This document shows, piece by piece, positions 32,291-57,160 of a stretch of DNA of 64,000 nt. The notes beneath the pieces are model-generated. The model made no database searches and had not been told where the DNA came from. It saw only the letters and a program-made list of their open reading frames with translations. The position numbers and the translations under genes were made by a program. Source of the DNA: Trypanosoma brucei (Eukaryota); NCBI GenBank assembly GCA_000002445.1, contig CP000069.1, positions 1,554,916 through 1,618,915 of the forward strand, written 5' to 3'. Numbering within the stretch: the first letter of the stretch is position 1; every line of letters starts with the position of its first letter.

Positions 32291-32368
32291 AGCAGCTCAA
32301 TGTGGAAGAGAAGTGAAGGAACCTTAAGTTCGACAAACAAAAAAGGCGAATTGGCTGCTAGAGGAATA

Positions 32369-32380
32369 AGGGTTAGGGTC
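32369..32380 (+). repeat. Telomere-like hexamer pair (AGGGTTAGGGTC) on the + strand.
   Basis: The sequence is seen directly. It is inverted relative to the block at 32484-32506. Confidence 0.6.
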
Positions 32381-32483
32381 TCCATCAAGAAAGAGCGGTA
32401 GCACAATTGAAAAATAAAAGATCAAAAGTCGTGACGCTTCACTGCTAGTAAAGAAAACAACATATTAGTAAGAGGAGAAATAT

Positions 32484-32506
32484 CCCTAACCCTAACCCTT
32501 ACCCTC
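32484..32506 (-). repeat. Interstitial telomere-like repeats. The gene (minus) strand reads GAGGGTAAGGGTTAGGGTTAGGG, ~110 bp downstream of the 16-mer of the VSG at 32658-34182.
   Basis: The + strand reads 'ccctaaccctaacccttaccctc'. On the gene strand the G-rich strand runs 5'->3' away from the VSG, as at a telomeric VSG. Confidence 0.7.
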
Positions 32507-32657
32507 AAAAAAAAATTCAAGAGAAGAAAAGGAGAAAAATGTTAGCCATCGACAAAATAATTCACATGCGCAGACAGCCAAAAAAATAATGATATTATTT
32601 CCGGGGAACTTACGTGTTAAAATATTTCAAATTCAAGCAAGAAAAGTTGAGGGTATA

Positions 32658-34182
32658 TTAAAAAAGCATGGCCAACAAAGCAGCAGCCATACTCAGAGCC
32701 AATTTCTGATTCAGAAGAAAACTAGAAGAGCGGCACTTTTTTGTCTCTTTATCATCTTCACCATCTTTTCCCTTCCTCCATGCACAATTTTGCTTATCTC
32801 CTGTTTTGTCATTTTCAGAATCATGTTGATTTTGGTGCCTTGCACACCGAGATGAATCTGCTCTTGTTCCTGCTGCTGTTGGTGCTGATCTTGCTTTGGG
32901 TTTGTATTTTTTTTTTGCATCATAGTCACGGCCAGCCTTGTTGCAGTTATCTGGGCTAGCATGGTGTTTGTCGCATTCTTGTTTAATGCTAAGTTGCTTA
33001 CCTTCCCCTGGAGTTCCTGCTCTTGGTGAGCCGGCTGTTGCCTCCACTGCGTGGTTGCGGCCGTACTCGTGTTCGGCTTGTTTGGATAGGTTGTCTATGT
33101 CTTTTATAAGAAGCTGCTTTTGTGCCACTTGTTGCTTGTATTCGGAAAATAGTTTCTTTGCTGTTAGTAGATGCCCGATCCAGGCTATTTTCTAAAACCT
33201 TGTTGTGCCATCTTTGATCTGGTCCGTGTATTCAACGCAGACAATTGATGTCCCCGTGCAGACGTTGCCGTTGACTGTTCGGCCTATCCCGATCTTGTTC
33301 TGGTTGTCTGCTAACTGTCCCAGCTGGCCTAGAGATGCTGCTAGTGCGAGCGTTATGCCTTCATCCAGTTGCTTACCTAGATTCGTTTTGGGGCATTTGC
33401 TTATAAGAGTTTCTAGAGCAAATGCGTTAAGGTTGCTTCCTGTTAAGACGGTTCCTGCTATGTTGGTTCCTCCAGCACAGCTGTCCTGGTCATTGGTTAC
33501 TGCGCACAGAAAAAACATGTCGAACGCTATTGATTTTCCGGCGTTTTCTTTTGTGCACTGCAGCACCTTGGTTGTCGCCGTGTTGATGTCGCTACATACT
33601 GGGGCGGCTGCGGTGCCGATTAATGTTCCTGAGCAGAAAGCTTTGGTTAGTGCGTTGTTTATTGCGTTTCCGAGGGATTTACCGGTGCTGTCTCGGGGCT
33701 CCGTGTTTAGTTGTTCGAGCAAGTTCTGTGCTTCCTGGGTTGACATGTTTATGATGCTTATTTGGTAGTCTTTTAGGTTGCTGTTATGCTTGGGCCTGTC
33801 TTTGGCGTTCCAGTCGCTCGTCGGGTTGTTAACCGCCTCCGCGGCTGTTAGCCACCGCGACCATTGTTTTGACCAGTCCAGTCCTTTGGTTGAGTCGCTA
33901 TTGGCCTGCTTATACTTGCCCCACCCCTGTTTTGCCTCGGCTTTTTCAAACATTTTCCTCCAATCCGCTGGTGCTACCGACATGTTCAGCTTCAGTAGGC
34001 TGTCATAGCTTGGTGGCGCCGGCATTGGTGAGCAAGCAGGTAATTTCATGTTTTGAGTTACGTCGCATGCCAAGCAAAGGGAATGAAATGGGGCCTGGGC
34101 GCCCTTTGTCGGCTGGTTCACACAGGGGAGTTATCAGCAACGCCATTAGCGGCAGAAAGTATGGAGTTACACGCATCACCAT
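32658..34182 (-). pseudogene. VSG: VSG pseudogene. The signal-peptide frame, the 309-aa N-terminal-domain ORF (33192-34121) and the C-terminal-domain and GPI ORF (32658-33128) are in different frames.
   Basis: The signal-peptide region reads 'MRVTPYFLPLMALLITPLCEPADKG'. The N-terminal domain reads '...LLKLNMSVAPADWRKMFEKAEAK...' and is paralogous to the VSGs at 44688-46264 and 8808-10296. The C-terminus reads '...KKCRSSSFLLNQKLALSMAAALLAMLF*'. Confidence 0.8.
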
Positions 34183-34361
34183 CTTTATCTTTGTGAAAAA
34201 ACATTTAGGGCCGTTGTGTAATTTAGCGTTGGCGCCTGAAGATTTGTCGAGTTTACGAAACTTCTCAGTGGCGATGAGAGCTTGTTTAAAGGAAGTTTTT
34301 GATTTAGTCATGTGCTGCAGTGTGAGAGAATTCGGTTGTGTTAGATTTAAGTCACAACTTC

Positions 34362-35300
34362 TTAGCCTTGACAAAATCTTTTTCTACAACTGCGGCTCCA
34401 CAAATACTCCATATTCAATATACCATTTCCCACCATATATCCCATAACTTTGAATTTCCCCCAATGGTTCGTATTAAATTTCCTTCTCTCAAATTCTCTA
34501 TAACAACTAAGATTTTTTACAATAAGCTTTGCTTTTTCCTCCAATGCAATTAGTTGTTGTGTAAAATGAATGAATGGCGCCTCTTCGACTTCACTATGTG
34601 GAATAGTAAAAAATCTCTCATCAAAACTAATCGCTGAGCAACAGCTTCTTCCTGAATTGCACTCCATATTAGCAAAGATTTATAAATACTTTGTTACGAC
34701 CATTATTCTTCACTTCCTTTCGATAGGTCTTTAAAATCTAATTCAAATTTCTTAAACGCCAACTCTCTCGCTATCAAGCCAACACCACTAAGACAGTGTT
34801 TGCCACAAGAATTAGACTTCAGAAAATGAGGTATTTTTTATCCTATTCTTTCCTGTATCCAATATTTAAAAACAATACACATTTCTCCAACGCTCTTTGT
34901 GATCTGAATTATCGAGCAACTCTAACTGAGATGCATAACACTCTGATGTTGTCATGAATATAATAGTGTAAATTTGTTTCTCTTTGATGACATCTTCTTC
35001 ACTACCTTTTTCGTCATTAGCTGCACTATTTTGTATAACATATTCCACAGCATTCAAATACTTATCATGTTCGGATATTATATCAGCCGGTCCATCAACA
35101 GTAATGACAATATCCTCATCACTTGCATTCTGTTTTTCTAAAAATTCCATAACCCATCTAGGCCTTTTAATATGACTATACAACCATCCCATTTCAATTG
35201 TAATAATTTCAACATTTCTTACTTTGGCACTCAATATGAGTCTACACCATTCTTTAGTTGCATGAGTTTGTCACTACAACCACAAATACTCTTTGTTTTC
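34362..35300 (-). pseudogene. Fragmented pseudogene of a subtelomeric gene family, copy A, abutting the VSG start. It carries a DxD-type motif ('NASDEDIVITVDG') that suggests a UDP-sugar glycosyltransferase-like protein, but its identity is not confirmed.
   Basis: ORF 34866-35234 reads '...VEIITIEMGWLYSHIKRPRWVMEFLEKQNASDEDIVITVDGPADIISEHDKYLNAVEYVIQNSA...'. ORF 34362-34667 reads '...EAPFIHF...KLIVKNLSCYREFERRK...'. Both ORFs are paralogous to 46383-47420. Confidence 0.45.
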
Positions 35301-35834
35301 TCATGGTAATTCTGTGTTTGATTTGCCGTTGTTTCTCTTCAAGAGATATTGAGCTTAAATAAACTAAATGAAGCAAAAGTACAAAAATACTAAACTTAGT
35401 GCCCTAATCTATCTTTAAAATTTGATAGGGTTATAAGAAAAACTTATAAAAGCTTAATAAAAAATACAGTTTGGCCACTAATGTCTTTACATAAGCAATC
35501 CCTTGACATTGTTGTGATACAGCTGTTGAAGGGTCTGTACTTAGTGTTGGTGTCTTCCATTTGAGAAATCATTTACATTCTTTTAGTTTAAGAAGATAGC
35601 TTCAATTTCACCTAGTTAAGCACACTAATCTTTGACTATAACTCATTATCACCTCCATCATATCTTCGTTTACGATGAGATCCAATTGTCATATCGATGT
35701 TTAAATCCGCATATATTCAACATAAATGAGTCTTTTTTCCCCTTCCTCTCTCACTTACTCATTTACTTGTTGTTCACCGTTACCATTATTTTAAATGCTT
35801 TTATTTTTTCGTTGACTTAGTGTTCTTCACCGCT

Positions 35835-35905
35835 TATATTGTATTATTATTATGCACACTCACATCGGTTACTCATATTAATATTATTATAGTTTATATT
35901 ATAAT
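35835..35905 (-). repeat. 70-bp repeat unit, upstream of the module at 34362-35300 and its VSG.
   Basis: The sequence reads 'attattattatgcacactcacatcggttactcatattaatattattatagtttatattataattc'. Confidence 0.65.
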
Positions 35906-36137
35906 TCTAAGTAATATCATAAAAAACATAAAATAAACTACAAAAAACCCAATTAGAATAGCACTAATTTTTTATGCTCTATCACTGTTTTACTTTACAC
36001 TCAGAGGCCGATGTTACACGAATTTTTCTAAATTTTAAAATTTACGTTAAAAAGTGTTAAAATAGAAGACATTCTTATATTATAAAGCAGATTTTATTAA
36101 CTTCATAAAATTGAGCAAAAATATTTTATAAATTTAA

Positions 36138-37615
36138 TTACAAAAGCAAAAATGCAAGCCAAAGAGGGGCCTTATTAATGATAAAAGAATTTCTTTCTGT
36201 GGTGTTTGTGTTTGGAGCTGCTGTTGTAGTTTTTGCATGGTCTCCTCCGCATTTGCTATCTTTTAATTCACACTTTTCCCGGTTGCAGTCATCTTCTTTG
36301 TCCCTTTGCATTCGATACTGGTGGGTCTGTAGCGGTTATCGTCTTAATCTGCACTTGATTTGCATTCATACCGCGACAGAATGCTAGTGCTGTTGCGTAG
36401 CCACCACTTGTGGCGATAGCAGGTAATGATCGTTTCAGTTGATCGTCGCCGAGAGGGTTGGGAAGTTTGGTGTTAGACAACGTGTTGAGGAAAAGTTCCT
36501 TGACCTTTTTTGTTTTGTCGCCCAACAAATTTTCTACTTCTTTTTTAGGGTGTCTGTTGTTTGGGCTGTGGTCGCCTTGTCTGTTGTTACGAGCCACGCA
36601 GCTTTCTGGGAATCTCCGTCGTTGCTGAGCTCTGCGATTGTGTTATCTTGCAATGTAGGTGTTGTTTGGAAGACTAAGTTTTTCAGTTGGCGTATTACGT
36701 CTGCGGTTTGTGCTACTGTTAGTAATGTGGTCGCTGTGTGCCCGGTGTGTTCGGAGTTCTTGGTTGAGCTGCCTGGCGCCTGGCTCTGTTGCTTGGCTTG
36801 CAGTGTTGTCGCCGTCGTATAGCGTGTAATCGCCTTCACTCCCACATGGTGTGTGTTTTTACCAGCTCGTTAACCGCGTTGTTGCCGGCGGTGTCAGAGC
36901 CGCAGCCGATGCCCGTCCCGCCTAGTGGATGTTTGATATTTGCTCCTGCCCCGTGGTATGTTATAGTGATCTTGTAGTTTATGAATGCGAAGGCGTCGTC
37001 AGGTGTCAGCGACACTTGTGTTATCTCTGCGTGTCACCGTGCTGCTTCTTTGAGCTTGCTCTCCGTGCTTGAGTCTTGTGGGCATAGGTCTTGTTTTTCC
37101 TGCTTTGCATTGACATACGTGGTGCATGTCGCCGCTGTACCGCCTGTTGCCTTGTTCCCACTGTCGTTGTTTGTTTCGCTCGCCTTGGCCTTGGACACAC
37201 CTCCGGCTTGGTTCGCCATTAGCGCCGTTAGGGCTCCTAGCCGGCGATTTAGCAAGTTAAGTAGCGGGTCTATTGTCTGTTGGATGGTTTCTATCTCCCC
37301 CTGTAGCTTGGTTCTTCTTTTTTCTGCTGCTGCTACCAGTGCGAGATACTGTTGTTGCTGGCGCAGTGTGGCCATTGCGCAGGCTGCTAGTTCGAAAGTT
37401 TGTTGCTCTTTTTTAAGCTGGTCCAGGTTTGTTATTGGAGTTGCCAGCTTATCGGAAATGGCTGCTTGTGTCTCTCTGATGAATTTTATTTGCTGGTAAG
37501 GCGTGGTTATTGTCGCGGCTAGGACGCCCGCTGATTCTGCTGCCACGTTCCGTACCTGTGCTGCCAGTGCTGCTGCGAAGATTATTAAAGTCGCCGTGCT
37601 TTGATTGCAGGTCAT
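36138..37615 (-). pseudogene. VSG: VSG pseudogene. ORFs 37034-37615 (193 aa), 36534-36845 and 36289-36597 are separated by frameshifts, and a type-1-like C-terminal domain and GPI signal follow.
   Basis: The N-terminal region reads 'MTCNQSTATLIIFAAALAAQVRNVAAESAG...'. The C-terminus reads '...DCNREKCELKDSKCGGDHAKTTTAAPNTNTTERNSFIINKAPLWLAFLLL*'. Confidence 0.8.
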
Positions 37616-39095
37616 GTTTGTATGTGAAAAGCCGTTTGTCCGTTGCTTTTGTGCTGGAAAGGAGTTGGGAGCTTGTAATAATTTCTTTCTGAGCCACAGT
37701 TACTGTAGAGTATCGATTGTGGTAGTTCCACATTTGTTGCTAATGACAACCTTCCCATCCCTTTTAAATTAAATCTCATCTTTTTTAAACTTTGTTAAAG
37801 TCAGCGACTATCTTGTAGGGTTTGTATGATGACGGACCTATATATCGTTAAAAGACTGCTAATAGCTACAAATTTATCTCTTTTCGCTGGCTCCTCCCTC
37901 TAGTTCCAGGGTATCACGCTCTTTTCACGCCCTGTAGGTGAATTTATTCGATGCCTGGTGAGTGATGGCTGTCACTGCTTCTCCGAAGTCATCAATCAAA
38001 AGTCTTCTAGTATTAAATCTCCCATAATCAGTTTTCTCACTGGTTGCGCCGTTTTCCTTGCAAGGTCTGGGTAAATTTTAGTGATTGTCTCTGCATCTGT
38101 TTTACTACCATTTTTATTTACAACAGCCCCTCAAAAATAGCTTTCGTCATGCGGATCAGTGAATTGGCCTCGTAAATGGCTGTTTGTTTTCCTGGTAGCT
38201 CTCTTGAGTTTAGTTTTGCTGCTTGTCCTGAAAAGGTTTCTGCAGCTGTAAACCTTTTGATCCACCTAGTAGTTGCCATGTGCAAGCCACCTGATTCTGT
38301 CGGTACCATTTCCATTTACTATTACCTCTTTCGCTCTCACTAAACGACATAAGCCTGAAGAGACGATGAAATATTATTGAGAAAAAAGCGCATTTTTTTG
38401 GCTTCTGACTAATAGATTAGATACACCTAATTTATTAAGTCAGCTAGTTTTTAATCTAGTAAGTCAGGATATTAAGTTGTTGTTTCACATTTGCGGCTGA
38501 ATGTATTCTAGAAAACCACGAAGATAAGTACTCTATCTAAAAACCACAGCAATTTTCTAGAGTAGATACCACTATGATCCACTGTATCTACTTTATCTTG
38601 GGTCTAAATAACGGCTTCATTTTTTCTTTTCCTTTGGTATACTGATGCATTATTGGAATTGTTGCTGCTTCTGAACATGACGCTGGTGCCTTCACTTCTC
38701 ACAAGGTCGGGTGCAATCATCACCTGCTTATTTTTTTGTTTGTTGCTTGGCTTTGCTAATTCTTGTGCATATCACATAGAAAAGAACTGCAAGGTCTCTT
38801 CAAATGAATCATTCGTGCTGCACTTCTGTTTATTCATGATAATTCTTTTAGTGGAAATAGTGCAACCCTTCAAGAGCTTGTGGAAACATATTAGAAGTGT
38901 GTCACTTAGACGCATTCCACTTACATTGCTTCCATAGCATTAGTTTCAGTTCCTTTATTTATCCTGTACAATGCACTTAGCTACTTTCTCATCGTCCTCT
39001 CCATCACAATCTTGTGTGTAATGATGATGATGGTTATACTAATGTTTGTGTTTGAAAAAGAGCATACTAAATCCCCATTTTCCCTCTTTGTCTCA

Positions 39096-39118
39096 CACAC
39101 ACACACACACACACACTT
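39096..39118. repeat. (CA)n microsatellite.
   Basis: The sequence reads 'cacacacacacacacacacac'. Confidence 0.9.
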
Positions 39119-39184
39119 AATCTCACTAAACCTGTGCTGTTGTTTTTGTGCTTCTATTTTTGTGTCTCCTCGTTATGCACTATT

Positions 39185-39280
39185 ATTGCTCTCATAATAA
39201 TATTAAAATATACCCACTCACAACGTGATTGTATCATCATCATTATTATTATTATCATTTTTATTATAACACCACCAATG
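39185..39280 (-). repeat. 70-bp repeat unit, upstream of the VSG at 36138-37615.
   Basis: The sequence reads 'ataataatattaaaatatacccactcacaacgtgattgtatcatcatcattattattattatcatttttattat'. Confidence 0.75.
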
Positions 39281-39527
39281 AAAATAAAAATTAAATTAAA
39301 TTGGAATAGTACTAACTTTTCATACTATATAACGATACTACTTTGCATCGGCAGGAGATTTTTATACATAGTTTTTAGATGCTTTTAATTCTAAATTTTT
39401 AATGGTTTGAAAGAAGTGTTAAAATATAGAAAAGTTTAACAAATTTTATCAAATTATTAAAAACGGCATATTTCATAAGTTGAATAAATTGAGGAAATTG
39501 AAGAAAAACCCTAAAATCCTTAAAATT

Positions 39528-41060
39528 CTACCAAATCACAAAAGCAGAAGCCATACTCGGAGCCAATTTCTTATTGGGGAGAAAACTGGAATCTTTGCAT
39601 TTGTTTTCTTCCCATTTGCAACCAGCTTCCTTCTTGCAAACATCCTCCACTTTGCCTGTACATTTTTCTGTTGCTGTTTGTTCATTTCCTTTTGTTTCTC
39701 CCGCTTGGGTTTTCGCTTGTCCGACTTTTGTTGTATTCAATTTGCACTTTTTCTCTCCTTCTGTAGCCTTATCATTCCATTCACATTCTGACTTTAGGCT
39801 GCATTCTTCGGGGATAACTATTGCTTCACAATCTTTGCTGATATTGTTCGCTTGGTCCTTGTTGGCTGGTGTCAATATTTCTTGTGACGCTATGGGGGGT
39901 TTGGTTAAAGCTAAATGCGAGTAAAGTTTGTCAGCTTTGGCGCGCAATGCTTTCAGCTTGGTGTTTATTACCTTTGCGACAGTCGCTGCCTCTGATGCTG
40001 CGTCCAGTTTATTGGCTGCTTCTAATAGCTTCTCTTCCCACTGTATCTTTGTTGCTGTGCCTGTTGCTGCCAGCAGGGTTGATGCGCTCATGTCTACACA
40101 AGCGGCGCTCGCTTCCGCCCGGCAGTCGTGGTTGGTGCCCGCTGTCCCCAGAATTACGCTTTTGCCGCTGCCACCTCCCTTTGTCTTGTAGAGCCCTTTG
40201 AGCTGCGCTAGTAAACTGCGTATGTTGGCCCCTGTTGGTTTGACTGACGGCATCTTTAGGCAGTGCGGTTCAAGTTCCCTATACGCTGCTTTGACGCCGG
40301 CTTCATTCCAAGACGTAACATCCTGTGTTAGTGTCGCTCCGCAGACATCGGTGTTGGGCTGGTCCCCCGAGTTTTTTGCACACAGACACACCGAAACTAT
40401 GCAAAGAGCGTTGCCTGCTGTGGCTACTTTACAGTCAGCGGCCCTGTTGCCGCCTTTTGCCCCCGGGCATTTGTTTTCTGCTAAAGTTTCAGCCTTCCCT
40501 GCGCCGTACGCTGCTGTTTTTAGATCGTCCAGCACTTTCTGTTTCAGGTCTGTTAGTGCTGGTCTACTTTCCGCATCGAATCTTGCCTGAAGTGTTGCCG
40601 CCTCAGCTGCTATTGCTGCTGCAGCTAATGCGGCTGCCCGGCCTACGCTGCTCGTTTTTTGCATTGGTGAGATTTTTGCAGCCTTATTGTTTTTGTCTTT
40701 GTTTGCTAAGGAATGCGCTATGTGTTGCCATGCCAGCCATTGTTCCTGGCAGCTGTCTTTCGATTGGACGTCCTCACATCCTTTGGCTTCGGCCTTGGTT
40801 TTGATGCCGTCCGTCGGAAAGGCCTTAGTCCAATAGTCATCTGCTAACGAAAAGTTCACTTCGTTGATAGCGGCGATTTCATCTGTTTCGAGCTGGGCTG
40901 TTGGCATGTCGGTGCCATCGTCGTTGGCTATTTTTATTAGGGAGCACACCGTGGTTAGTTCAGCTAAATTTAATGCTTCACTGTCGGCTGCGTGCGAATA
41001 TCGGGTTGCTGCTACTACAAACAGGAGTAACACACTGGCGTGAGCTGGTATCAAAGTCAT
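39528..41060 (-). CDS. VSG: VSG with an apparently intact 510-aa ORF: signal peptide, N-terminal domain, two 4-Cys C-terminal subdomains and a GPI signal.
   Basis: The reading frame runs uninterrupted from 'MTLIPAHASVLLLFVVAATRYSHAADSEALNLAELTTVCSLIKIANDD...' to '...CTGKVEDVCKKEAGCKWEENKCKDSSFLPNKKLAPSMASAFVIW*'. The 16-mer at 39416-39431 lies downstream. The hydrophobic tail is slightly shorter than the canonical 23 residues. Confidence 0.8.
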   Translation of the reverse strand: MTLIPAHASVLLLFVVAATRYSHAADSEALNLAELTTVCSLIKIANDDGTDMPTAQLETDEIAAINEVNFSLADDYWTKAFPTDGIKTKAEAKGCEDVQSKDSCQEQWLAWQHIAHSLANKDKNNKAAKISPMQKTSSVGRAAALAAAAIAAEAATLQARFDAESRPALTDLKQKVLDDLKTAAYGAGKAETLAENKCPGAKGGNRAADCKVATAGNALCIVSVCLCAKNSGDQPNTDVCGATLTQDVTSWNEAGVKAAYRELEPHCLKMPSVKPTGANIRSLLAQLKGLYKTKGGGSGKSVILGTAGTNHDCRAEASAACVDMSASTLLAATGTATKIQWEEKLLEAANKLDAASEAATVAKVINTKLKALRAKADKLYSHLALTKPPIASQEILTPANKDQANNISKDCEAIVIPEECSLKSECEWNDKATEGEKKCKLNTTKVGQAKTQAGETKGNEQTATEKCTGKVEDVCKKEAGCKWEENKCKDSSFLPNKKLAPSMASAFVIW

Positions 41061-41379
41061 ATTTATTGTGTGTTGATGGTTATACGCTTAGATGCTTTGC
41101 ACTCTAAAATAGATGCGTTGGTTTCATTTCAAAGGAAGTTAGGGAACTCTTGAGGCGCCTTGCCGTGTACTTTGGCACTTACCCTCACGGGTTGGTACCT
41201 GTCGTTCATTTTTATCAGAAAAAGTTGTTCTTTATGCGTAGTGCTAATACTTCTTCCGGGTTTTGTGGGTGGTATCGCAACGATGCCTTGCCGCTGGAGG
41301 CTCAGATTTCCGCTTTGGCGTAAATTCCTTTTTAAAATTCTATACTCGTTGACTTTTTTAAATTTTCCACCGAGCAACC

Positions 41380-41960
41380 GTCAGGTCCATGCAGTCTGAC
41401 CAGCCGAGGGTAAGGCTTAAATGCATTTATCCGCACCACGCCGTGAGGACATGGTAGTGTGGGACTCAACGCTGGAGGCCAGCGTGCCTATCCACTAAAA
41501 CCCCCTTTGTTTCTTTGAGAATCGACACATACAGGTGGGCCACCGCATGTGTGCGATTCTAGGGGGCGTTGTCCATTTGCCGTCCATCCGATCCCTCCCA
41601 CATTGCATCTGAACCATGTTTACCATATCCATCTGCCTCCCCGGCCGGAAGTTGGGTCAGGGATTTTGGTTCCCCCACCTGAGCAGGGTACTGAACCGTG
41701 GTGCAACACTAAGTAATGGTTCTTTCTTCATGGAGCAGCCACAGCATATTCAGTATTGCAACCGACTTTTGGATGGAACATTTGGCTTTCCAGTCGATTT
41801 CTCTTCTGGTACGTGACCCTGGCGCCACATTGAGGCAGATTCATTCTTAGTGTAAGCTAAATAATCTGCGCCCGCGGGGATTCACCCAGGAATTATCTGC
41901 GACGAGCACTCTACTTAACCACTAAACCAGGGGCCGGTTAAGTTGCTGTTGTAGTCCGCG
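41380..41960 (-). mobile_element. GC-rich non-VSG block carrying a degenerate ingi/RIME-clade retroposon terminal signature on the minus strand. It is a likely truncated retroposon (ingi, DIRE or SIDER-like) and it truncates a VSG.
   Basis: The minus strand reads '...CTCAATGTGGCGCCAGGGTCACGTACCAG...'. The ingi 5' end at 62518 reads '...CTCAACATGGCGCCAGGGTCCAGTACCCCG...'. GC content is well above the flanks. The block ends abruptly at the VSG fragment boundary at 41960. Confidence 0.45.
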
Positions 41961-42592
41961 TAACACAAGCATGTTAAATCTTTTGCTACGGTTGTCACCT
42001 GGATTTTTTCTGAAGCCGAGTTGCACCGTTCCGTTCCTGTGCTGAACATCGGTTTCTTCGTCGCTTGTTGGGGTTGATCTCCCGACAGAGGGTGCTTTAG
42101 GTGTTGTCGTGGCGTTGTTACTAAAGCCTGTATCATAGCGTGAGTCAGCTTTTGCTGTCTACTCGGTTTTATGGCGCCCAGTTGCATTTGTTTTACGGCT
42201 GTTTCTGTCAGTTGTCGTTCTGGTTCGTCGCAGGTGCGTAAATATTTACGCTTTGCATCTGCTGCCTGTGCCTCTGGAAAACTTTGTTTTGTCTTCTGCC
42301 ATGTTTGTTTGCTAAAAGGTGAAAAAATTGGCGGCGTGAAATTAACTGTCAGCGTTGTTACAAAGTACAGTTCCTGTCCGTCGATGATCGCGTGTCGTGT
42401 GTCGGTTCGTGTTAAGTCTGTTGTGTTGGATTTCTATGAGGACGGCTTGTAAATTGCGCAGAAGAAAGAGAATTCTTTGCTGTTCTTTGTGGCCGCTGTG
42501 TTGGCCAGTGCCGCCGCCAATAGTAGTAACAACGATGTTGGTGCTGTAGCAAATACGCCATCTCCCGACTTTTCATGTCCGTATCTGTTCAT
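41960..42592 (-). pseudogene. VSG: VSG 5' fragment (signal peptide plus partial N-terminal domain) truncated by the retroposon-like block.
   Basis: The signal region reads 'MNRYGHEKSGDGVFATAPTSLLLLLAAALANTAATKNSKEFSFFCAIYK...'. The continuation reads '...QKTKQSFPEAQAADAKRKYLRTCDE...QMQLGAIKPSRQQKLTHAMIQALVTTP...'. Confidence 0.55.
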
Positions 42593-44084
42593 CCCTAGCT
42601 TTCAGTCGGGACTTGCAAACTCTGGGGGTTCAGAAACGGAAAAATAGTTGAGTGGCCCCAGTGTCTACAATAAAGTCCACTGCTTTTCTTTCAAGCTGCT
42701 GTTGTTTACCGCGCGTGGCTTTTAGATTGATGAATACGATTTGTATCCATTCACATTATTTCTAGCCGCCTATATCCCTCATCTATGAAATATCGTCTTT
42801 CGACACCCTATTTTTCCACTAAAATAAAAGCTTTATATTCTCACTATTACTTGCCACCGCTTGAAATCAATACATAACATGAAAATCACACGACAGAATA
42901 AAAAACAGTCACCACCATCATCTCTGTTGCACCCATTCATTTTTTGTGATGTGGTGTTTTCTTTTGAGTGCCCATGGTACTTCCATCCGCCGCATCATAT
43001 GTGACTTCGTAATTTCGGCCCCCAGTTTCGCCACTTCTTCCATTTCATACTTTATGTGCTTCATTCTGGGCCTTGAGAATGATTAATTCTAAACATTGAA
43101 GAGGAGTATCTGTTGTTCTCTTCCTAGGAACTTCTTACATTTGTAACGTAGATTGTCATTGGTCTTTCATTTGTTCCATTTTTAAATAATTATCTGATAG
43201 CTGTCGATTTCTTGCACGTGAGCGACACAAAAGCTACAACAGGATAAAAGTCTCATGAGAAATGGCTCATCTATTCTGACTTATTCCCTCTGTGTTAGAT
43301 TCACTTGTATTATTTAAAGTCACCTTGTTTTTAATCTACTAAATAAGCTATTTAAGTTGTGCCTACACACCTCTAATTGCATGGCCCCAGAAAAACAATG
43401 AAATGCTTCGTTCTATCGAATATTTTTACCAACTCTACTGTGCATAGGGTGTTAATAAGGTTAAATGCTTCTACACTGCCTTTTAATGCAATAATTTTAT
43501 TTTTGTCTCTTTTCATTTGCCATTTCTATGGTTTTCCGGATAGTTTTCAAAATCTTTAAATGTTGTGATATTTTTTGAGCTTTACACGTATGTTTAGGTA
43601 CAATCATTCTCTGCATACTTGTTCACTTCTCTCAAGTTCCAAATTCTGTTCATAGCTGCACTCTCACAAGAATTACACGTAATTTATTAGCTACACTTTC
43701 TGCATTAGATAGTTTTTTTCCATAATGCTGCTTTCAGTAGAAATAATGCATTCTTCGAGGAATTCTCAGTAACATGTGGGAAATAGTAGGCTTAGTCTCT
43801 TGCCACACTCACTGCTTCTCCGTTGCAAATTTAGAAGCTTAATTTGTCTTCAAAACTGTACTCTGTCTTTTCATCATCTTACCGTGTATAACAATGAGCA
43901 GTTCCATGTTATTGTTTGACACTCCACATATTCTGTCTCCTTTTTCTTTTCTTTACGCCTTTCTTAATAATATTATCCGTTCCCTCCCCTTTCCCTCTTA
44001 CTCACTGTCCCTCCTACTCACTTTGATTTCGCACTTACCACTGTTCAAATATTTTATTTTTTTCTGTCCATATAGTCTTCATAC

Positions 44085-44455
<371 letters not shown>

Positions 44456-44687
44456 TACAATGCCATCATTAATATCATTACTTTTATCATTATTACCCTA
44501 AATTGCTCTTAATATACATAAAATAAACAAAATAAACCTAATCAGAATAGCACCCACTTTTAACACCTTATCACCTTATGACTTAGCAGTCATATACAAC
44601 ATTAATACCAAAAGCTGAAATATATATATATTTTTACAAATTCTCTAGAAAAAGCTCCATAAATTTTACAAAATAGAGCAAAAATAG

Positions 44688-46264
44688 TTAGAGGTAAAAT
44701 TCGACGAAACTCATAAAAGCAGCAGCCATACTCAGAGCAAATTTCTAATTGACGATAAAACTACGATTTCTGCACTTCTCCTTTTTTGTATCCTTATCAT
44801 CTTCACCATATTTACCCTTTCTAAATGCACAATTGTGTTTGTCACCTGTTTTGTCAGCTTCACAATTAGACATATTTGGTGTGTTGCATACACAGGTTTA
44901 TCAGCTGCGTGTTCTGCATCTCTTGTCCCTACTGCTGTGTTTTCTTTTCCTGTCTCTTTAGGTTTGCATTCCTTTTGTGTTTTGTCATATTCGCAGTGTG
45001 TTTCCGGACACTCTGCTGGGGTATTGTTCTTTTTGGGGCAGCTCTTGCCGTTGATATTTGTGTCTTTGCCTTTCGGTGCTTGTACAGCAGTTCCTGCCAC
45101 GGGTGTTTGTGCAGGCAAGGCGGCTGCCATCGCCAGACTGTAAGCGCAGTCGGTTTGTTTTTCTATGAGCGCTATTTGCTGTGCAATTCGGTTAGCTGTT
45201 TCGATTTGCTTTGCTTGGGATTCTAAATTTTCTGCTGCCGTCCATAGATGGCCAACCCAAGGAATGCCTGTGACTCCTTTTCCGGTTTGTTTTTTGAAGT
45301 AATTGGCATAACTTACACAGAGGTTTGATGACGTGCCGTCGCAGCTTGCGCCGTTTAGGCCTCCGAGGTAAACCAGTGTCTCGCTCGCTGACGTTTTTCT
45401 GCCTAGAGTTGACTCGAAACTATGTATCGCGTCTATAAAAGCGTTTGCGGTAAGCTTCGGCTTTACTTGTTGCGGACATGTTGCCTTGAGAGTCGTCCAG
45501 TGGGTGTCCGGATTCGTGATGCTGACTACCCAGTTCTGTTGTGTGTCGCCGGCTGGGCATTCGCTGGCGCCTGTGTCGGTGCCGTTGCAGAGGCAGAGAA
45601 AGTCGCCGATTATCGATCGGCCTGTTTTGGCTTCGACACACGTTGTCGTCCAGGCTGCAGCACCATCCAGTGTGTTTGTTGTGTCGACCGCTGTGTTTGT
45701 GCCATCGCCGCCCTATAGGGCGGCGTTGAGTTCCTTTTGTATCTTTGCTGGCAGGGTGGTTGTCACCTCTGTTTTTACAAGATTGTATTGATGCTGCAGT
45801 TCCTCTAATTTGGAGGCGTTTTGTTCTATGATCAAATGAAGAAACTGCCATTGCTGGTCATACGTTATTTTCTTGTATTTGCTGTGGTCTTCTGTTCCTA
45901 CCTTTGCATCTGCCGCCCTCTCCGCTGCCGACCACCAGTGTTCCCATTTTCCGCCCCAGTCTTTGGCATACGAAGGCGATACGTACACTTCCGGCATCTT
46001 TTTTCCTTTTTCTTCTGTTAGTTTTGTGTCGAACAATGCCCGCCAGTTGTCGTCGCTTGTTGTTAAATTGAGTTCAAGCATCGTCTGCAGAGCCTTTCCT
46101 TTATCTGGTGTGATCGTCGCCGGCGGTTGCTGTGCTGCCGCTAGGGCCTGTAACCGACACATGATTCCATGGGCTTGCGCGTTGTCGTCCGCTGCGCTGC
46201 TCGCTGGCCGGATAGCATAAGTTAAGAAAGCTAGCACTGCTAGTACGCAAGTGTTAGCACACAT
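44688..46264 (-). pseudogene. VSG: VSG pseudogene. The N-terminal-domain ORF (45713-46264) and the C-terminal-domain ORF (44732-45130) are separated by frameshifts, and the GPI signal contains an in-frame stop.
   Basis: The N-terminal region reads 'MCANTCVLAVLAFLTYAIRPASSAADDN...LELNLTTSDDNWRALF...'. The C-terminus reads '...KEKCRNRSFIVN*KFALSMAAAFMSFVEF'. Confidence 0.8.
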
Positions 46265-46382
46265 GCTACGCTGTGGGCCGTAAGCACCTACGTATATTAA
46301 AAAGACAGAAAACTACTGGAAAAAAACGTTTTTGTACATAATTATGTAATACCAAAAATTTACTGATAATGACTTGCAGCTG

Positions 46383-47420
46383 TTATAGATCTGATTTAAT
46401 CAACAATTGAACGGAGTCTCTTCGTCGTCGGTGGCGCGCTAGGATATTCTTTAATTTGTTGGGGTGGTTGTTTTTCTGGTTTGTTTCCGGTACTTTCTGG
46501 CACTTATTGTGCAGTGGTCTTCTGCGCTCGACTTGTGTTTCACAAATTCTCGGCTTTAAAAAGGTACCCTTCTTTAAACGCATCACCACAAATCTCAAAA
46601 AATTAAATTTTTCCATCCATTGTATAAGTTTGAATTTTTCACAAATATATTGTGCCAAATTGTTTACTCTCCAACTTCTTGTACAAACTAAGACATTTAA
46701 TAATCATTTTTCCTTCACTTCCCATGCGGTGGGCTATACAGAAAAAAATGAATGGGACCTCTCCAATATCACCACTATTTTGAGCAAAGATTCTCTCCTC
46801 ATAATCCAATCCAATCATTCCTCTCTTCAAAACAAATTTCTGTCAACCAGCTTTTTCCTGGATCGCATTCCATATAGTAAAGGTTTGTGGATACTCTGCT
46901 CTCGCCGCCATTTCTCATTTCCTTTCAATAACTTGCCAAATGTATATTCAAATTTCTTGAGTGCCCAAACTCTTGCCATTAAACTTCCACCACTAAGATA
47001 AGGTTTTCCTCTAGGAGGTATTTTAAGAAAAAGACGTAATTTTTATCTTCTTCTTGTCTCTCTGTGACAAACATTAAAAAAACTAATAACATCTTTTCGC
47101 GGACTCTTTGACAATATCCTTCTAACTAAAGTTCTGTTTATTTTCTGCAGTATTTTGTATAAAATGTTTCACACCACTCTCATACTTATTTCTATCACTA
47201 ACTATAACATCATATCCATCCAAATGAATTACAATATCCTCATCACTTGCATTCGTTTGCTGTAAGAATACCATAAACCATCTAGGCCTTTTATCATGAC
47301 TATACAAACCTCCCATCGCAATTGTAATAATTTCAACATGGCTTAGTTTGCCACTTAATATTAGTCTACACCATACTTGAGTTTCATGAGTTTAAACTAC
47401 AGCCACAAAAACTGTTAGTT
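46383..47420 (-). pseudogene. Copy B of the DxD-motif family pseudogene, immediately upstream of the VSG at 44688-46264 and paralogous to 34362-35300.
   Basis: The sequence reads '...SGKLSHVEIITIAMGGLYSHDKRPRWFMVFLQQTNASDEDIVIHLDGYDVIVSDRNKYESGVKHFIQNTAENKQNFS*'. ORF 46639-46830 reads '...EVPFIFFCIAHRMGSEGKMIIKCLSLYKKLESKQ', which is homologous to copy A. Confidence 0.45.
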
Positions 47421-48244
47421 TCTTAGGATTCTTTTTCTGTTATATTTCCCTCTGTATAATATTAAAGAGATTTTAAGCTTAGAAAATGGAAATCTAATGA
47501 CAACAATCGAAGCAGTAAAACTTTCAAGAGTCCAAATTTTTGGACGTAATTTAGCTTTGAAAATATGGAGAATTTTGAAAAAGTGATAAAAAAGCTGTGA
47601 AAATAAATTAGTTGGACACTAACGTGTTTACATATATTGATACTGCCTTTATATTTTTGTGATTTAGATATTAAATGATGTATGGTTATGTTATGAAACG
47701 TATCTTTGAGCACACATCGACAATTTCTGTTTTAGAATGTAGCCTCAACCCCATACAGTGTAGTTCATGCATACACAGTCCCTTTCTATGCATTTCCAAG
47801 AGACATTTCTCATCTAGTTGCTCTACTTGGTTCGCTATACTAAGTATTTTTTTAGTTTCGTTTGCTGAAACTTCACACCATCTGTTTTCGTCATAATGTT
47901 CCCATCAGAGCGACTTTATGAACTACTTATATCACTGCTGTGGATAACGTAGCGGCTCCATATGCTTTGGACATGAAACTCTGTCTCTCAATGATTGTCT
48001 CCTCCACCACGTCCTTGTGTATAATGATGAAGCCACTCGTAATGTTTTTGTTTAAAATTGATAACATTCTATTTTTGTTATCTATATCTCTCTGTCTTTG
48101 ACTTTTGATCTTCCTCTACTAATACTCCTCTAACTTTCCATTATCCGGTTGCTCACTAACTACCATTTCAACCCTTTCCATTTTTTTATATTTTCCACCA
48201 TGGCAGTTAATTTGATCTTCCCCACTACTTTCATTATAAAAATA

Positions 48245-48295
48245 GTTCCACACGCTAACAACAAACTCCTATCATTATTATTGTTATTGCGATTG
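48245..48295 (-). repeat. 70-bp repeat unit, degenerate.
   Basis: The sequence reads 'cacacgctaacaacaaactcctatcattattattgttattgcgattg'. Confidence 0.6.
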
Positions 48296-48578
48296 ACCTA
48301 GCCAGTATTCCAAAATCAATAAAATAAACAGAATAAACCAAACTAGAATATTATATAATTTAACCCCATCACTGTGCTACTTTTTATACATTAGCGACTT
48401 TCACTCCATAATATCGTAATATCAAAATTTGTATATTTTTCAATGGTTTTATAAAAGTATTAATATATATATATATATAATTTTATAAAACTTTTTCAAC
48501 TCCTCCTAAAAAAATAGAACTTCATAGAGTTTCAAAAAATTGATCAAAGATCCTTAAAATTTTAGAATCCTTAATATA

Positions 48579-50087
48579 CTACAAACTCACAAAAGCAGCA
48601 GCCATCAGATAAATTTTCTTAGTTACAAGAAAACTGGAAGAGCGGCATCCAGGAGTTACCGGACCAGTGTCTTCGACATAAGTAATCAATTCACAAAAGG
48701 CTTTCTTTCCTGTTGGAATTGTTCCAGTTATTTTGGCGCAATCCTCATGGGTCTGTGTGGCAGAGCATTTGTTTTCTGAAGCTGCTCCTAGTTTGATTTC
48801 TACCTTCCCTTTCTTTTTGTGCGTGCAAGTCTCTTTTTCCTTATCCCATTCGCAATCTCCTGTGCATTCAGTTCCCTTTTTTCCACTGCATTGTTTTTCT
48901 GCCGATTGATCGTCACCAGAAGCCGCTTGTCGTGCTTGTGCTTCGGCAGCTATTTGTTTGACGAGGCCTCTAGCTGTGGCCTCACCGACTGCTGTTAGTG
49001 TTTCTAGGTTTTCTATTTTTGTTGCTTGCTCTTTCTTCTGATCGCCGAGGTAAGCTGGCGTTCTTTCAATTGCCTTCCAAAGTTACTCCTCAAATTTTGT
49101 GCCTTCGGTACCGTAGTATTTTGTTATTGCTGTCGTTAATTCTGGGGCTTTTGACTCTTGGCCCTCTTCCGCTTCTGTTTTGCCGATAAGTGCTTTTGTT
49201 ACCATCGAATTGAATTTGCTGTTGGCTGCGATGGTTGCGAAGTCGCGAATTCTTTTGGTACATGCGGGCGCTGGATTGGTGTTTTTTAATCCTTTTATCG
49301 CTGTATTGGCTTCTGTATTTAGGTTGCCGATGAAGTCTACCTCTGCGGCCGATATCGCTTTTGCGCTGGCTGTATCTGTTAGCCAGGTGGCCTTAGCGTC
49401 TGTTGGAGATCCATCATAGATCAGTTTTACTTCGAATTTTCCGTTCTGTTGTAGGTTGCTTGTGGCCTGGCATCCGTTTCTGACTGTTCCGTCCCGCTGA
49501 CATCGTGCCTGCACATGTGCGTGCGTTATGACTTTGGCTGTCGCCTTCTCGTTGTCGATGTTCGTTTTGTCGATTGTCGCCGCATCCAGGGTGTTAAGGT
49601 CGTCTGCGCAACCCTTTTTGTTGATGTTTCCTAGGTTAGCTTTGGGTACTTCCTTGGCGGTGTTGATGTTGGTGTCGTCTTGTATGTGCAGCTGCAGTTC
49701 GCCGTTGCCCTCTTTTAGCTTCTGTTGCACGTCGTATAGTGCACGCAGTTCGGCCACATTTTTTTCTGCATCGAGAATTGCCGGTCTTGCTGTCGTTAAC
49801 GCTTCTTCGCAGTCGTTGATGATCTCTGCTGCCGACAGCAGTACTGGTGCTAATTTTGTCCTTAGGTTGCTGCTTCCTAGGACGGCCGCTGCGATGAGCT
49901 TGCCGAAGTCTTTTTTGTTTTCTTTTAGGTTTGCTTCGGCTTCCGAGTAATCGCCTCTGTAGACGTCTATTTGTTTTTCAAGTCTTTCCCAGCAGCCGCA
50001 GTTTGTGCTACAGGCTGTTGCATCGGGTGTCGCGGCCGTGGTGGCTACCGCTACCGCCAGTAGAGCGATTATCGCGTTATTGCACAT
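48579..50087 (-). pseudogene. VSG: VSG with a 334-aa N-terminal-domain ORF (49083-50087). The C-terminal domain and GPI signal are in shifted frames.
   Basis: The signal-like region reads 'MCNNAIIALLAVAVATTAATPDATACS...'. The tail in another frame reads '...CRSSSFLVTKKIYLMAAAFVSL*'. Confidence 0.8.
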
Positions 50088-51714
50088 TCAGAGTTTTTTG
50101 GCAGTCGTAAACTTCGAGTTCTAACGAGTTGGTGACGAATCTTGCTAGATTGAAGTGTGGTAAAACTTTTTAGCCAATTACCAGTGTTCAGAGCTACTAC
50201 ACAGCAGAGATTGCACAAAGAAAGCTTTAGAATCTGGTTGTCTGGCTTTGCCGCCGGTGTGACACAATAGACTGCATTAGAACTTAACCGGTGTTTCGGC
50301 GTTAGTTCGAAGCTTTGAGCAACTTCTAAATAAAAATCTTTGATCCAAACTGATAAACCGCTGCCGTGGTTGATGTTGCGCCCCCGCCAATATAACTCTA
50401 TGTCAGGTGCACCGTTTGGGGCTGGTGACGCGTTGGCCTTTTAAAATTAGTGAATAACTAAAAAAAACGTAGCGGCCTAGCAGCGTCATGATGAAATTTT
50501 TTACCGAACTTTGCAATACCCAAAAGAAGGGCTCACTTAGCTATATAATGTATTTTGTTGAACTCACGCTTTTAAAGGGATATTTTGCCAATTTTGATTT
50601 TTTGAACATTCCCGACACATACTGCAAAAATATAAATTTTTGACTTCCCACAGAATTCTTTATAACGGTATATCCAGTTGATTTTGCATTGATGGAGATA
50701 AGTGACAGGTACGTTATGAAATGTGTATTATCATTTTAAATGATAGGGTTTCTCATATTTTCGATTCATGAAAATGTTGGTTTTACCATATAAACCCATG
50801 AAAATTATAATAAAATTTAAAGGCTAACTTTGTGTTTTGACACGTTGCCACTTTGAAATCCAATTTATTTAGTTTTGTATCTTGTGGATCTATCCATTTG
50901 AACGATGGGGTCTTCCAATCTTTGAAATGGAGTTCTTTTTTCTATACCTGAAAGTTCAGATCTCATGGTTTCTAATCTGCTTTATTTGCTGCTAATACCT
51001 TTGCCGTACCGCCAGCTTCAGTAGTGATGTAACATTTTCGGTTTTTTCGTATGCACGACACTTTTCTGTCTGGTGCAAAAGCTGTCTGGTTTCATGTTAC
51101 TTTCATTTTTGACTTGGTAATGTTGCTCAGATATGTAATCTATATTTCTTCTGATCACCCTTTATTCGTTACAGTAAAGCTTCTTAAGTTCTCATCCTTA
51201 TGTAAATTACCCGGCCCGCTAGTGCTTTCAATTTGATATTTATATACCAATATGAAATTAATTGAGTTTTATTACAGGCTTTTTATACTTGAGAATCAAC
51301 ATCTAACTCATCGTATATGTAATAATTTAAGTAGTTTGTGTTATACTATTTCTCTTTTTCTGTTCAATGTAATTCATGAGTAGTCCAATTTTCAAAATCT
51401 TTTTCCCAATAAAATTATATATTTTCTCATAGTTCTATCCACTATCATTATACCTGATCAGAAAAAAAATTGGAATTGCTTCACGCTTCACCATTCTCTC
51501 TATGCTTTTTCGCAGCTGCATATTAGTATTCACCATCACATTAAACATTACAGTCTCAATCAATTAAGCAAATTCTGCGCCTATCCATTTTTTAGTGAAA
51601 TATGGGAAAGATCTGTTGCTCATCCTCTCGCTCTCCCACCAACTAATATACTTGCATTGAAACATCTACACACTTTCTAGTTTTCCTATTTTGTCCAAAA
51701 TTTAGTCTTCACCA

Positions 51715-52265
<551 letters not shown>

Positions 52266-52554
52266 TATTGTACTACTACTATTGCAACATCAATCAATAT
52301 TCATAAAGAACCATAATAACAATTTCTCATATTATCACCTATCTTTTATATCTTATCACCCTCCTGCATTACACCCATATTCCACGATCATAAATATTGA
52401 CTTAAAATTAAAATTATTCACCTTTTAACTAATTTTCACGTTTTCATCAAGAAGCGTTAAAAAATATACGGTATTTTAGAAATTTTACAGAAGTCTCCGA
52501 AAGTAAAATTTTTTATTAATTTCATAAAATTAACTGATACTCTTAAAAGTTTGA

Positions 52555-57151: not shown

Positions 57152-57160
57152 GGCTGAGTT
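57152..57160. repeat. IS10 target-site duplication, right copy (GGCTGAGTT).
   Basis: Identical to 55814-55822. Confidence 0.95.

What the first reader, a model, noticed from the sequence alone, without database searches (positions are those of the whole stretch)
41380..42592. GC-rich retroposon-like block with an ingi/RIME-type terminal signature that truncates a VSG and lies directly upstream of the only apparently intact VSG
The 580-bp block at 41380-41960 is compositionally unlike the array. It carries, on the minus strand, 'CTCAATGTGGCGCCAGGGTCACGTACCAG', a close relative of the ingi 5' signature seen at 62518 ('CTCAACATGGCGCCAGGGTCCAGTACCCCG'). It abuts a VSG 5' fragment (41960-42592) that loses its reading frame exactly at the junction. 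The intact-looking VSG at 39528-41060 therefore has a non-canonical upstream region with no 70-bp repeat within 3 kb. That would affect how the VSG could be mobilised by 70-bp-repeat-mediated gene conversion. The element may be a DIRE, SIDER or other short degenerate ingi-clade retroposon.
Basis: partly seen in the sequence, partly recalled or inferred. Interest (0 to 1): 0.55.

Follow-up and report, generated by a model that had tools for sequence, protein, structure and literature searches.

The report
Known TbSIDER2 fossil retroposon beside VSG
The odd 580-bp block is an already catalogued copy of TbSIDER2, a short, extinct, non-coding retroposon of Trypanosoma brucei, lying between a decayed surface-antigen (VSG) gene fragment and an intact-looking VSG; it is an ordinary genomic fossil.

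Summary
The block is real. It is a TbSIDER2 element, a Short Interspersed DEgenerate Retroposon of the ingi clade, on the minus strand at 41932->41354 (579 bp). With 22-nt flanks on each side it is 623/623 identical to the copy published as Tb927_06_v4:1,596,247..1,596,869 (PMC4035085, Additional file 1). It is 78-89% identical to six other published TbSIDER2 copies and 12.7% from their consensus. It matches ingi only over a 28-bp piece of the 5' signature.

The VSG_B homology of the upstream pseudogene fragment ends 9 nt before the element. An intact-looking VSG starts 293 bp downstream. That VSG's nearest 70-bp repeat is 3.01 kb away, against 0.76-1.95 kb for about 14 other VSG-like ORF starts in the window.

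Three caveats apply:
- The signature is internal, at element positions 99-127, not terminal.
- At least one other ORF (2175-3647) also looks like a whole VSG.
- The effect on VSG mobilisation is untested.

The copy shows no target-site duplication, no ingi4 target motif and a mutated promoter core (TGTG for CGTG). Published assays found no ribozyme activity in a TbSIDER2 construct. One small extra: a 271-bp core is 100% identical to a second chromosome-6 copy, while the flanks are about 76% identical. This points to gene conversion. Novelty: already known.

The parts
41354..41932 (-). TbSIDER2 element, 579 bp, non-coding. It is the copy published as Tb927_06_v4:1,596,247..1,596,869.
   Evidence: With flanks it is 623/623 identical to the published sequence. 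It is 78-89% identical to 6 other TbSIDER2 copies and 12.7% from their consensus. No ORF exceeds 66 aa.
41927..41932 (-). CCCTGG, the canonical first bases of ingi-clade elements (start of the split 79-bp signature / Pr77 hallmark).
   Evidence: It aligns with the first bases of all 7 TbSIDER2 copies and with the CCCTGG of the ingi-type 5' end at 62518.
41806..41834 (-). It contains the position of the Pr77 downstream promoter element, which here reads TGTG (41829-41826) instead of CGTG.
   Evidence: 24/28 match to window 62536-62563, with 0 of 2000 shuffles as good. Four of 7 copies keep CGTG, both chromosome-6 copies have TGTG and the T. b. gambiense copy has CATG. CGTG is essential for L1Tc Pr77 promoter activity (PMC4748587).
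41589..41859 (-). 271-bp tract (element 74-344) that is 100% identical to the other chromosome-6 TbSIDER2 copy (Tb927_06_v4:1,550,987). Inferred gene-conversion tract.
   Evidence: Flanking segments are only 76.7% and 76.3% identical. P is about 1e-32 for such a run at the flank divergence.
41419..41509 (-). 3' module (element 424-514) shared with TSIDER1 elements.
   Evidence: 78% identity over 93 nt to TvSIDER1 positions 426-514, E 1e-15. The match to TbSIDER1 has E 5e-8.
41354..41366 (-). A-rich 3' tail (AAAATTTAAAAAA), a vestigial poly(A).
   Evidence: Sequence. It aligns with the A-rich tails of the other copies.
41942..42592 (-). Decayed 5' fragment of a B-type VSG pseudogene. ATG at 42592, in-frame TAG at 42436-42434, and homology ends 9 nt before the element.
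   Evidence: Pfam VSG_B 32.9 bits, profile positions 93-215/352, residues 95-217. Translation.
41061..41353 (-). 293-bp spacer between the element's tail and the VSG ATG. It does not continue the VSG fragment.
   Evidence: No similarity to anything else in the window. Its translation is not VSG-like.
39528..41060 (-). Intact-looking B-type VSG ORF, 510 aa.
   Evidence: VSG_B 222.8 bits (2-351/352) plus Trypan_glycop_C 69.7 bits (1-101/104). It is 80% identical to T. brucei 'VSG 1741' over 61% of its length.
44074..44293 (-). Two 70-bp repeats followed by a triplet run to about 44435. These are the nearest repeats upstream of both the VSG fragment (1.48 kb) and the intact VSG (3.01 kb).
   Evidence: nhmmer E 5e-17 and 2e-17. 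TRF triplet array 44133-44435.
39174..39258 (-). 70-bp repeat downstream of the VSG, belonging to the next cassette.
   Evidence: nhmmer E 1e-15.

Best explanation
The block is a fossil copy of TbSIDER2. TbSIDER2 is a non-coding, non-autonomous retroposon family of about 575 bp in the ingi clade, with about 12 copies in the T. brucei TREU927 genome. This very copy has already been published: chromosome 6, 1,596,269-1,596,847 in v4 coordinates, obtained by trimming the 22-nt flanks from the published 1,596,247..1,596,869 record.

Shown:
- identity to the published copy;
- family membership;
- the exact boundaries;
- the abutting VSG fragment;
- the lack of a target-site duplication.

From the literature: such elements were once copied by target-primed reverse transcription, using the machinery of ingi4-type autonomous elements (Tbingi/TbDIRE), and the family is now extinct.

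Inferred history: the present arrangement reads 70-bp repeats, then 1.5 kb, then the VSG 5' fragment, then TbSIDER2, then 293 bp, then the intact VSG. It is not a simple insertion. Either an old insertion into a VSG was followed by loss or replacement of the 3' side, or the flanks were exchanged by recombination between SIDER2 copies. The 271-bp tract identical to a second chromosome-6 copy shows that this element has taken part in ectopic gene conversion.

Inferred function: the element does nothing today. Its only likely consequence is structural. The intact VSG has no 70-bp repeat of its own. A 70-bp-repeat-initiated gene conversion would therefore have to copy a 4.5-4.8-kb compound cassette that includes the pseudogene fragment and the SIDER.
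For: - Exact 623/623 match to the published TbSIDER2 record including both 22-nt flanks.
- Full-length identity of 78-89% to six other TbSIDER2 copies. Divergence of 12.7% from the consensus, inside the published range of 8-13.7%. Length 579 bp, inside the published 558-587 bp.
- CCCTGG start, split ingi-type signature and A-rich tail.
- About 44% global identity to TbSIDER1, which is noise level. Only 28 bp of similarity to ingi.
- VSG_B homology ends 9 nt from the element.
- No TSD (1/12). ingi4 target motif 2/8, which is background level, against 4-7/8 for the other copies.
- A 271-bp tract 100% identical to the other chromosome-6 copy, with flanks 76% identical.
- 70-bp repeat map: 3.01 kb for this VSG, against 0.76-1.95 kb for about 14 other VSG-like ORF starts in the window (distances read off).
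- Literature: TbSIDERs are extinct and 95.5% lie outside the directional gene clusters. TbSIDER2 is linked to ingi4 machinery. The assayed TbSIDER2 ribozyme construct, built from the chromosome-3 copy, was inactive in vitro.
Against: - The history of the junction cannot be resolved from one genome.
- The VSG truncation coincides with the element's exact 5' end to within 9 nt. That pattern favours a true insertion into the VSG. Yet that flank lacks the ingi4 target motif and there is no TSD.
- No cross-strain comparison was possible: the exact-sequence look-up found nothing and the homology search returned a single hit, a T. brucei VSG 80% identical over 61% of the query, with no genomic context.
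- The effect on VSG mobilisation is inference only.
Confidence: 0.93

Rival explanations
1. The block is a truncated or degenerate piece of ingi, RIME or DIRE rather than a SIDER.
For: It shares the ingi-type 5' signature motif, 24/28.
Against: It has no similarity to the ingi-type element in the window beyond 28 bp. It has full-length similarity to TbSIDER2 copies and complete element ends, CCCTGG to A-rich tail, within 579 bp. It shows no coding remnants.
Confidence: 0.02
2. A simple, undisturbed retrotransposition into a VSG gene: the element split one VSG, and the rest of that gene follows it.
For: VSG_B homology stops within 9 nt of the element's exact 5' end, as expected at an insertion junction.
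Against: The 293 bp after the A-rich tail are not VSG-like, and the next gene starts with its own ATG and signal peptide. TSD is 1/12 and the target motif is at background level.
Confidence: 0.05
3. The element is functional here: its Pr77-type internal promoter or HDV-like ribozyme drives or processes transcripts running into the downstream VSG on the same strand.
For: It has the same orientation as the VSG and lies 293 bp upstream. Pr77 is an RNA polymerase II promoter in L1Tc (PMC4748587).
Against: The essential CGTG core reads TGTG in this copy, and it lies about 104 nt, not 25 nt, from the element start. The assayed TbSIDER2 ribozyme construct (built from the chromosome-3 copy) was inactive in vitro (PMC4035085). 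No Rfam ribozyme match appeared even at E<=10. The fold of the first 162 nt is not exceptional, z = -1.14.
Confidence: 0.04
4. The 5' 70 nt are a tRNA pseudogene or a tRNA-derived SINE head.
For: D-loop-like (TAGTGGTTAAG) and T-loop-like (ATCGATCCCC in the other copies) strings are present. ARAGORN at 80% of its normal threshold calls a tRNA in 1 of 7 copies.
Against: ARAGORN at its default threshold finds none in the window or in any of the 7 copies. No Rfam tRNA match appeared at E<=10.
Confidence: 0.02
5. The block is foreign DNA introduced during cloning, like the IS10 at 55.8 kb.
For: The window does contain one bacterial insertion.
Against: No match in 5,426 E. coli genomes even in sensitive mode. 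Multiple diverged copies exist in T. brucei strains 927 and 427 and in T. b. gambiense.
Confidence: 0.01

Closest known systems
TbSIDER2 (T. brucei Short Interspersed DEgenerate Retroposon 2; Bringaud et al. 2007, PMC2323293; Sanchez-Luque et al. 2014, PMC4035085)
   Same: It is a member, and in fact a listed copy. Length, CCCTGG start, split signature over the first 160 nt or so, A-rich tail, subtelomeric location and 12.7% divergence from the consensus all fit.
   Different: This copy lacks the ingi4 upstream target motif that most other copies retain. It has a mutated promoter core (TGTG). It carries a 271-bp tract identical to its chromosome-6 neighbour.
Tbingi / TbRIME
   Same: It shares CCCTGG and a 28-bp piece of the 79-bp 5' signature. 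TbSIDER2 was presumably mobilised by ingi4-type machinery.
   Different: No other sequence similarity. ingi is 5.2 kb and coding, and RIME is its 500-bp deletion derivative and still active. This element is extinct.
TSIDER1 (TbSIDER1/TcoSIDER1/TvSIDER1; PMC3820030)
   Same: Similar size (about 570 bp), a 5' signature, an A tail, and a 3' module of about 90 nt at the same position (78% identity to TvSIDER1).
   Different: The rest of the body is unrelated, about 44% in global alignment. TSIDER1 has a single uninterrupted signature and is linked to the ingi6 target motif.
Leishmania SIDER2
   Same: Same clade and name. It has two signature-like regions at the 5' end and is extinct.
   Different: The Leishmania elements expanded to about 2000 copies and were co-opted as 3'UTR mRNA-decay elements. 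T. brucei has about 12 copies, almost all outside gene clusters, with no known role.

Membership tests
TbSIDER2 | Nucleotide similarity over the whole element to known members | tested here: met
   100% identity to published copy Tb927_06_v4:1,596,247. 78.4-88.9% identity over 567-577 aligned nt to six others.
TbSIDER2 | Size 558-587 bp and non-coding | tested here: met
   579 bp. The longest ORF in the block is 66 aa.
TbSIDER2 | ingi-clade 5' signature, spread over the first 161 nt or so in this family | tested here: met
   CCCTGG at position 1 and a 24/28 match to the ingi signature at positions 99-126, with 0 of 2000 shuffles as good. The 161-nt layout is described in PMC2323293.
TbSIDER2 | A-rich 3' end | tested here: met
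   AAAATTTAAAAAA at 41366-41354.
TbSIDER2 | Divergence from the family consensus of 8-13.7% (extinct family) | tested here: met
   12.7% from a 7-copy majority consensus. Published range.
TbSIDER2 | 12-bp target-site duplication (present in only 1 of 12 published copies, so not strictly defining) | tested here: not met
   1/12 matching positions. No better than 8/12 at any nearby offset.
TbSIDER2 | ingi4-type upstream target motif (GTxGGxTxxx^xTxTxxT) | tested here: not met
   2/8 over the last 22 nt and 2/10 over 34 nt, which equals the background mode. The other six copies score 4-7/8.
ingi / RIME / DIRE | Sequence similarity beyond the 79-bp signature, or remnants of the endonuclease/RT ORF | tested here: not met
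   Only a 28-bp match to the ingi-type element in the window. No long ORF.
TSIDER1 | Full-length similarity to TbSIDER1/TvSIDER1 and a single uninterrupted signature | tested here: not met
   43-46% global identity. Local matches are limited to the signature and a 3' module of about 90 nt.
HDV-like ribozyme (L1TcRz type) | Nested double-pseudoknot fold with self-cleavage | tested here: inconclusive
   No Rfam ribozyme hit at E<=10. Fold z-score -1.14. The one TbSIDER2 construct assayed in PMC4035085 (the Tb927_03 copy) was inactive. This copy was not assayed.

The most novel reading that the evidence does not exclude
Extinct SIDER2 copies may act as dispersed patches of homology that mediate ectopic recombination inside the silent VSG archive. 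On this reading the window copy is a chimera: its 271-bp core is identical to a copy 45 kb away, while its flanks are 76% identical. Such an exchange could have joined a decayed VSG-fragment cassette to an intact VSG, leaving the intact gene dependent on a 70-bp repeat 3 kb away.
Probability: 0.25. Interest if true: 0.3.

Novelty: already known. Interest (0 to 1): 0.1.

Why it matters
It matters little. The element and this exact copy are already in the literature, and the family is regarded as extinct and without function in T. brucei.

Two residual points have modest value:
- This is a worked example of a compound VSG cassette, in which an intact-looking VSG has no 70-bp repeat of its own. 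That could lower or alter its use as a donor in antigenic switching.
- There is direct sequence evidence that two old SIDER2 copies on one chromosome arm have exchanged a 271-bp tract. Even fossil retroposons therefore take part in the recombination that reshapes the VSG archive.

Tried and rejected
- BLAST of the block against the rest of the window gave only the 28-bp ingi-signature match and nothing else.
- Bacterial contamination was rejected: no E. coli match in sensitive mode.
- tRNA and other RNA families were rejected. ARAGORN found none in the window. Rfam found nothing relevant at gathering score or at E<=10. ARAGORN on the heads of 7 TbSIDER2 copies found none at the default threshold and 1 of 7 at the 80% threshold.
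- An RNA fold of the first 162 nt was not exceptional, z = -1.14.
- The target-site duplication and ingi4 target motif are absent in this copy.
- A search for the missing 3' half of the VSG fragment, or for relatives of the 293-bp spacer, found nothing elsewhere in the window.
- Cross-strain comparison failed. The exact-protein look-up found nothing. The homology search returned a single T. brucei VSG with no genomic context. The available DNA collections hold no trypanosome genomes.
- 'Two tandem Pr77 hallmarks' (the description in PMC4035085): in this copy the first 84 nt match the ingi signature only at CCCTGG (shuffle p 0.75), and the two halves do not resemble each other (p 0.71). The description 'one signature split by an insertion of about 80 nt' fits better.

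Full report
**Setting.** The window is a Trypanosoma brucei silent VSG array read on its minus strand.
- ORFs with Pfam VSG_B or A-type VSG domains recur every few kb on the minus strand.
- 70-bp repeats occur only on that strand, about one per cassette.

**Observation.**
- The motif lies on the minus strand at 41834-41806.
- It matches the ingi-type 5' end at 62518 in 24 of 28 positions. BLAST E was 0.003 within the window, and 0 of 2000 shuffles scored as well.
- Nothing else in the block resembles that element or any other part of the window.
- The block is not bacterial: there was no hit in 5,426 E. coli genomes in sensitive mode.
- It is not a recognisable tRNA or Rfam family.

**Identification.** A literature search for short ingi-related elements led to the TbSIDER families.
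- Bringaud et al. 2007 (PMC2323293) found 10 TbSIDER1 and 12 TbSIDER2 copies of 558-587 bp. Each has the 79-bp signature at the 5' end, spread over 161 nt in TbSIDER2, and an A-rich 3' end. The families are 8-18% diverged from their consensus and 95.5% of copies lie outside the directional gene clusters.
- Bringaud et al. 2011 (PMC3820030) linked TbSIDER2 to the ingi4-type target motif. That paper classed TbSIDER1 as inactive; the 2007 paper classed both TbSIDER families as extinct.
- Additional file 1 of Sanchez-Luque et al. 2014 (PMC4035085) prints seven TbSIDER2 copies with 22-nt flanks.
- One of those, Tb927_06_v4:1,596,247..1,596,869, is found exactly on the window's minus strand at 41954..41332 (623/623 nt). 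This places the element at 41932->41354, 579 bp.
- So the window is TREU927 chromosome 6, and this copy is already catalogued.

**Family membership.** An independent alignment confirms it.
- Identity to the other six TbSIDER2 copies is 78.4-88.9% over 567-577 aligned positions.
- Divergence from a majority consensus is 12.7%.
- Identity to TbSIDER1 is only 43-46%, which is noise in a global alignment.

**Anatomy.**
- The element begins with CCCTGG, as in ingi.
- About 80 nt follow that have no ingi counterpart.
- The body follows, then AAAATTTAAAAAA.
- In this copy the first 84 nt match the ingi signature only at CCCTGG (shuffle p 0.75), and the two 'hallmarks' do not resemble each other (p 0.71). 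A signature split by an insertion describes it better than two tandem hallmarks.
- In the predicted RNA fold, CCCUGG pairs with the downstream CCAGGG and the inserted 80 nt form their own hairpin. The energy is unexceptional, z = -1.14.

**Is it active or functional?**
- The CGTG core shown to be essential for L1Tc Pr77 promoter activity (PMC4748587) is kept in four of seven TbSIDER2 copies. It reads TGTG in both chromosome-6 copies (window 41829-41826) and CATG in the T. b. gambiense copy.
- That core also lies about 104 nt, not 25 nt, from the element start.
- The TbSIDER2 ribozyme construct assayed by Sanchez-Luque et al., built from the chromosome-3 copy, showed no cleavage.
- There is no target-site duplication: 1 of 12 positions match.
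- The ingi4 target motif scores 2/8, which is the background mode. The other six copies score 4-7/8.
- I therefore read it as an inert fossil.

**Neighbours.**
- Upstream on the minus strand is a decayed B-type VSG 5' fragment. Its ATG is at 42592 and it has an in-frame TAG at 42436-42434. It scores VSG_B 32.9 bits over profile positions 93-215 of 352, and homology ends at residue 217, about 41942. That is 9 nt before the element.
- Downstream, 293 bp with no relatives in the window lead to a 510-aa ORF. This ORF matches VSG_B 2-351/352 and the C-terminal domain 1-101/104.
- From my own knowledge, its C-terminal tail (…SSFLPNKKLAPSMASAFVIW) is shorter and less hydrophobic than canonical GPI signals, so 'intact' may not mean functional. 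This was not tested.
- ORF 2175-3647 also has a full VSG_B match plus part of the C-terminal domain, so 'only intact VSG' is overstated.

**70-bp repeats.** A profile built from eight in-window repeats finds 21 hits (E<=1), all on the minus strand.
- The distance from a VSG-like ORF start to the next upstream repeat is 0.76-1.95 kb for about 14 such starts (read off; five of them have no Pfam check).
- For the VSG fragment that distance is 1.48 kb.
- For the intact VSG at 41060 it is 3.01 kb.
- The excess is explained by the interposed fragment plus SIDER2, 1,239 bp in all.
- 70-bp repeats have been shown experimentally to promote access to archival VSGs (PMC4858185). A conversion starting at 44.1 kb would therefore have to copy 4.5-4.8 kb, including the fragment and the SIDER. 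Whether this matters is untested.

**History of the junction (inference).**
- The VSG truncation coincides with the element's exact 5' end. That suggests an insertion into a VSG.
- Against this, there is no TSD, no target motif, and no VSG remainder after the tail.
- A clue comes from the other chromosome-6 copy (Tb927_06_v4:1,550,987), about 45 kb away. It is 100% identical to this one over element positions 74-344 (window 41859-41589) but only 76.7% and 76.3% identical on either side. P is about 1e-32 for such a run.
- That is a gene-conversion tract between two old copies.
- Recombination between SIDER2 copies could likewise have exchanged flanks. That would explain the mismatch between the 5' and 3' sides.
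- This needs the flanks of the other copy and other strains to test. Neither could be obtained here.

**Verdict.** The element is already known, down to this copy. Interest is low.

Noticed in passing
window 55823-57151 (TSD copies at 55814-55822 and 57152-57160): A complete bacterial IS10 (1,329 bp) sits inside the trypanosome sequence. It has an RNA-OUT match of 98.8 bits and a DDE transposase ORF at 55930-57138, and is 99.1-99.7% identical to E. coli copies, including those in cloning strains. It is flanked by a perfect 9-bp duplication, GGCTGAGTT. It is almost certainly an insertion acquired in the E. coli cloning host, that is, an artefact in the assembled sequence.
   Followed up: yes
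window 41589-41859 (element positions 74-344): A 271-bp tract is 100% identical to the TbSIDER2 copy at Tb927_06_v4:1,550,987, about 45 kb away and outside the window. The flanking parts of the two elements are only about 76% identical. This is a gene-conversion footprint between two fossil retroposons.
   Followed up: partly
window 41419-41509 (element positions 424-514): TbSIDER2 shares a 3' module of about 90 nt with TSIDER1 elements at the same relative position: 78% identity to TvSIDER1 with E 1e-15, and a match to TbSIDER1 with E 5e-8. PMC3820030 states that TSIDER1 has no similarity to other trypanosomatid elements apart from the 5' signature.
   Followed up: partly
window 62518-64000: An ingi-type 5' end (CCCTGGCGCTACCGG...) runs to the end of the window. 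It has 19-34 stop codons in every frame, so it is a degenerate ingi/DIRE-like element. The position of its promoter core reads CATG rather than CGTG.
   Followed up: partly
window 63995-64000 and the whole window: The window ends in GAATTC. If window + equals chromosome +, the published coordinates put window 1..64000 at chromosome 6 positions 1,554,916..1,618,915. From memory, the upper figure equals the assembled length of TREU927 chromosome 6. The window may therefore be the last 64 kb of that chromosome as assembled. The chromosome length was not verified.
   Followed up: no
window 2175-3647 (-): A 490-aa ORF has a full VSG_B match (10-351/352) and a partial C-terminal domain (1-68/104). 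It is a second intact-looking VSG in the window.
   Followed up: partly
window 17392-17819 and 51758-52217: Two very long, 99-100% pure triplet arrays, (TAT)143 and (TTA)153 on the + strand, adjoin 70-bp repeats. They are much longer and purer than the triplet runs at the other repeats.
   Followed up: no
window 52740-54068 (-) and 49083-50087 (-): Two long minus-strand ORFs (442 and 334 aa) occupy VSG-cassette positions but have no Pfam match at E<=0.01. They are possibly very divergent or mosaic VSG pseudogenes.
   Followed up: no
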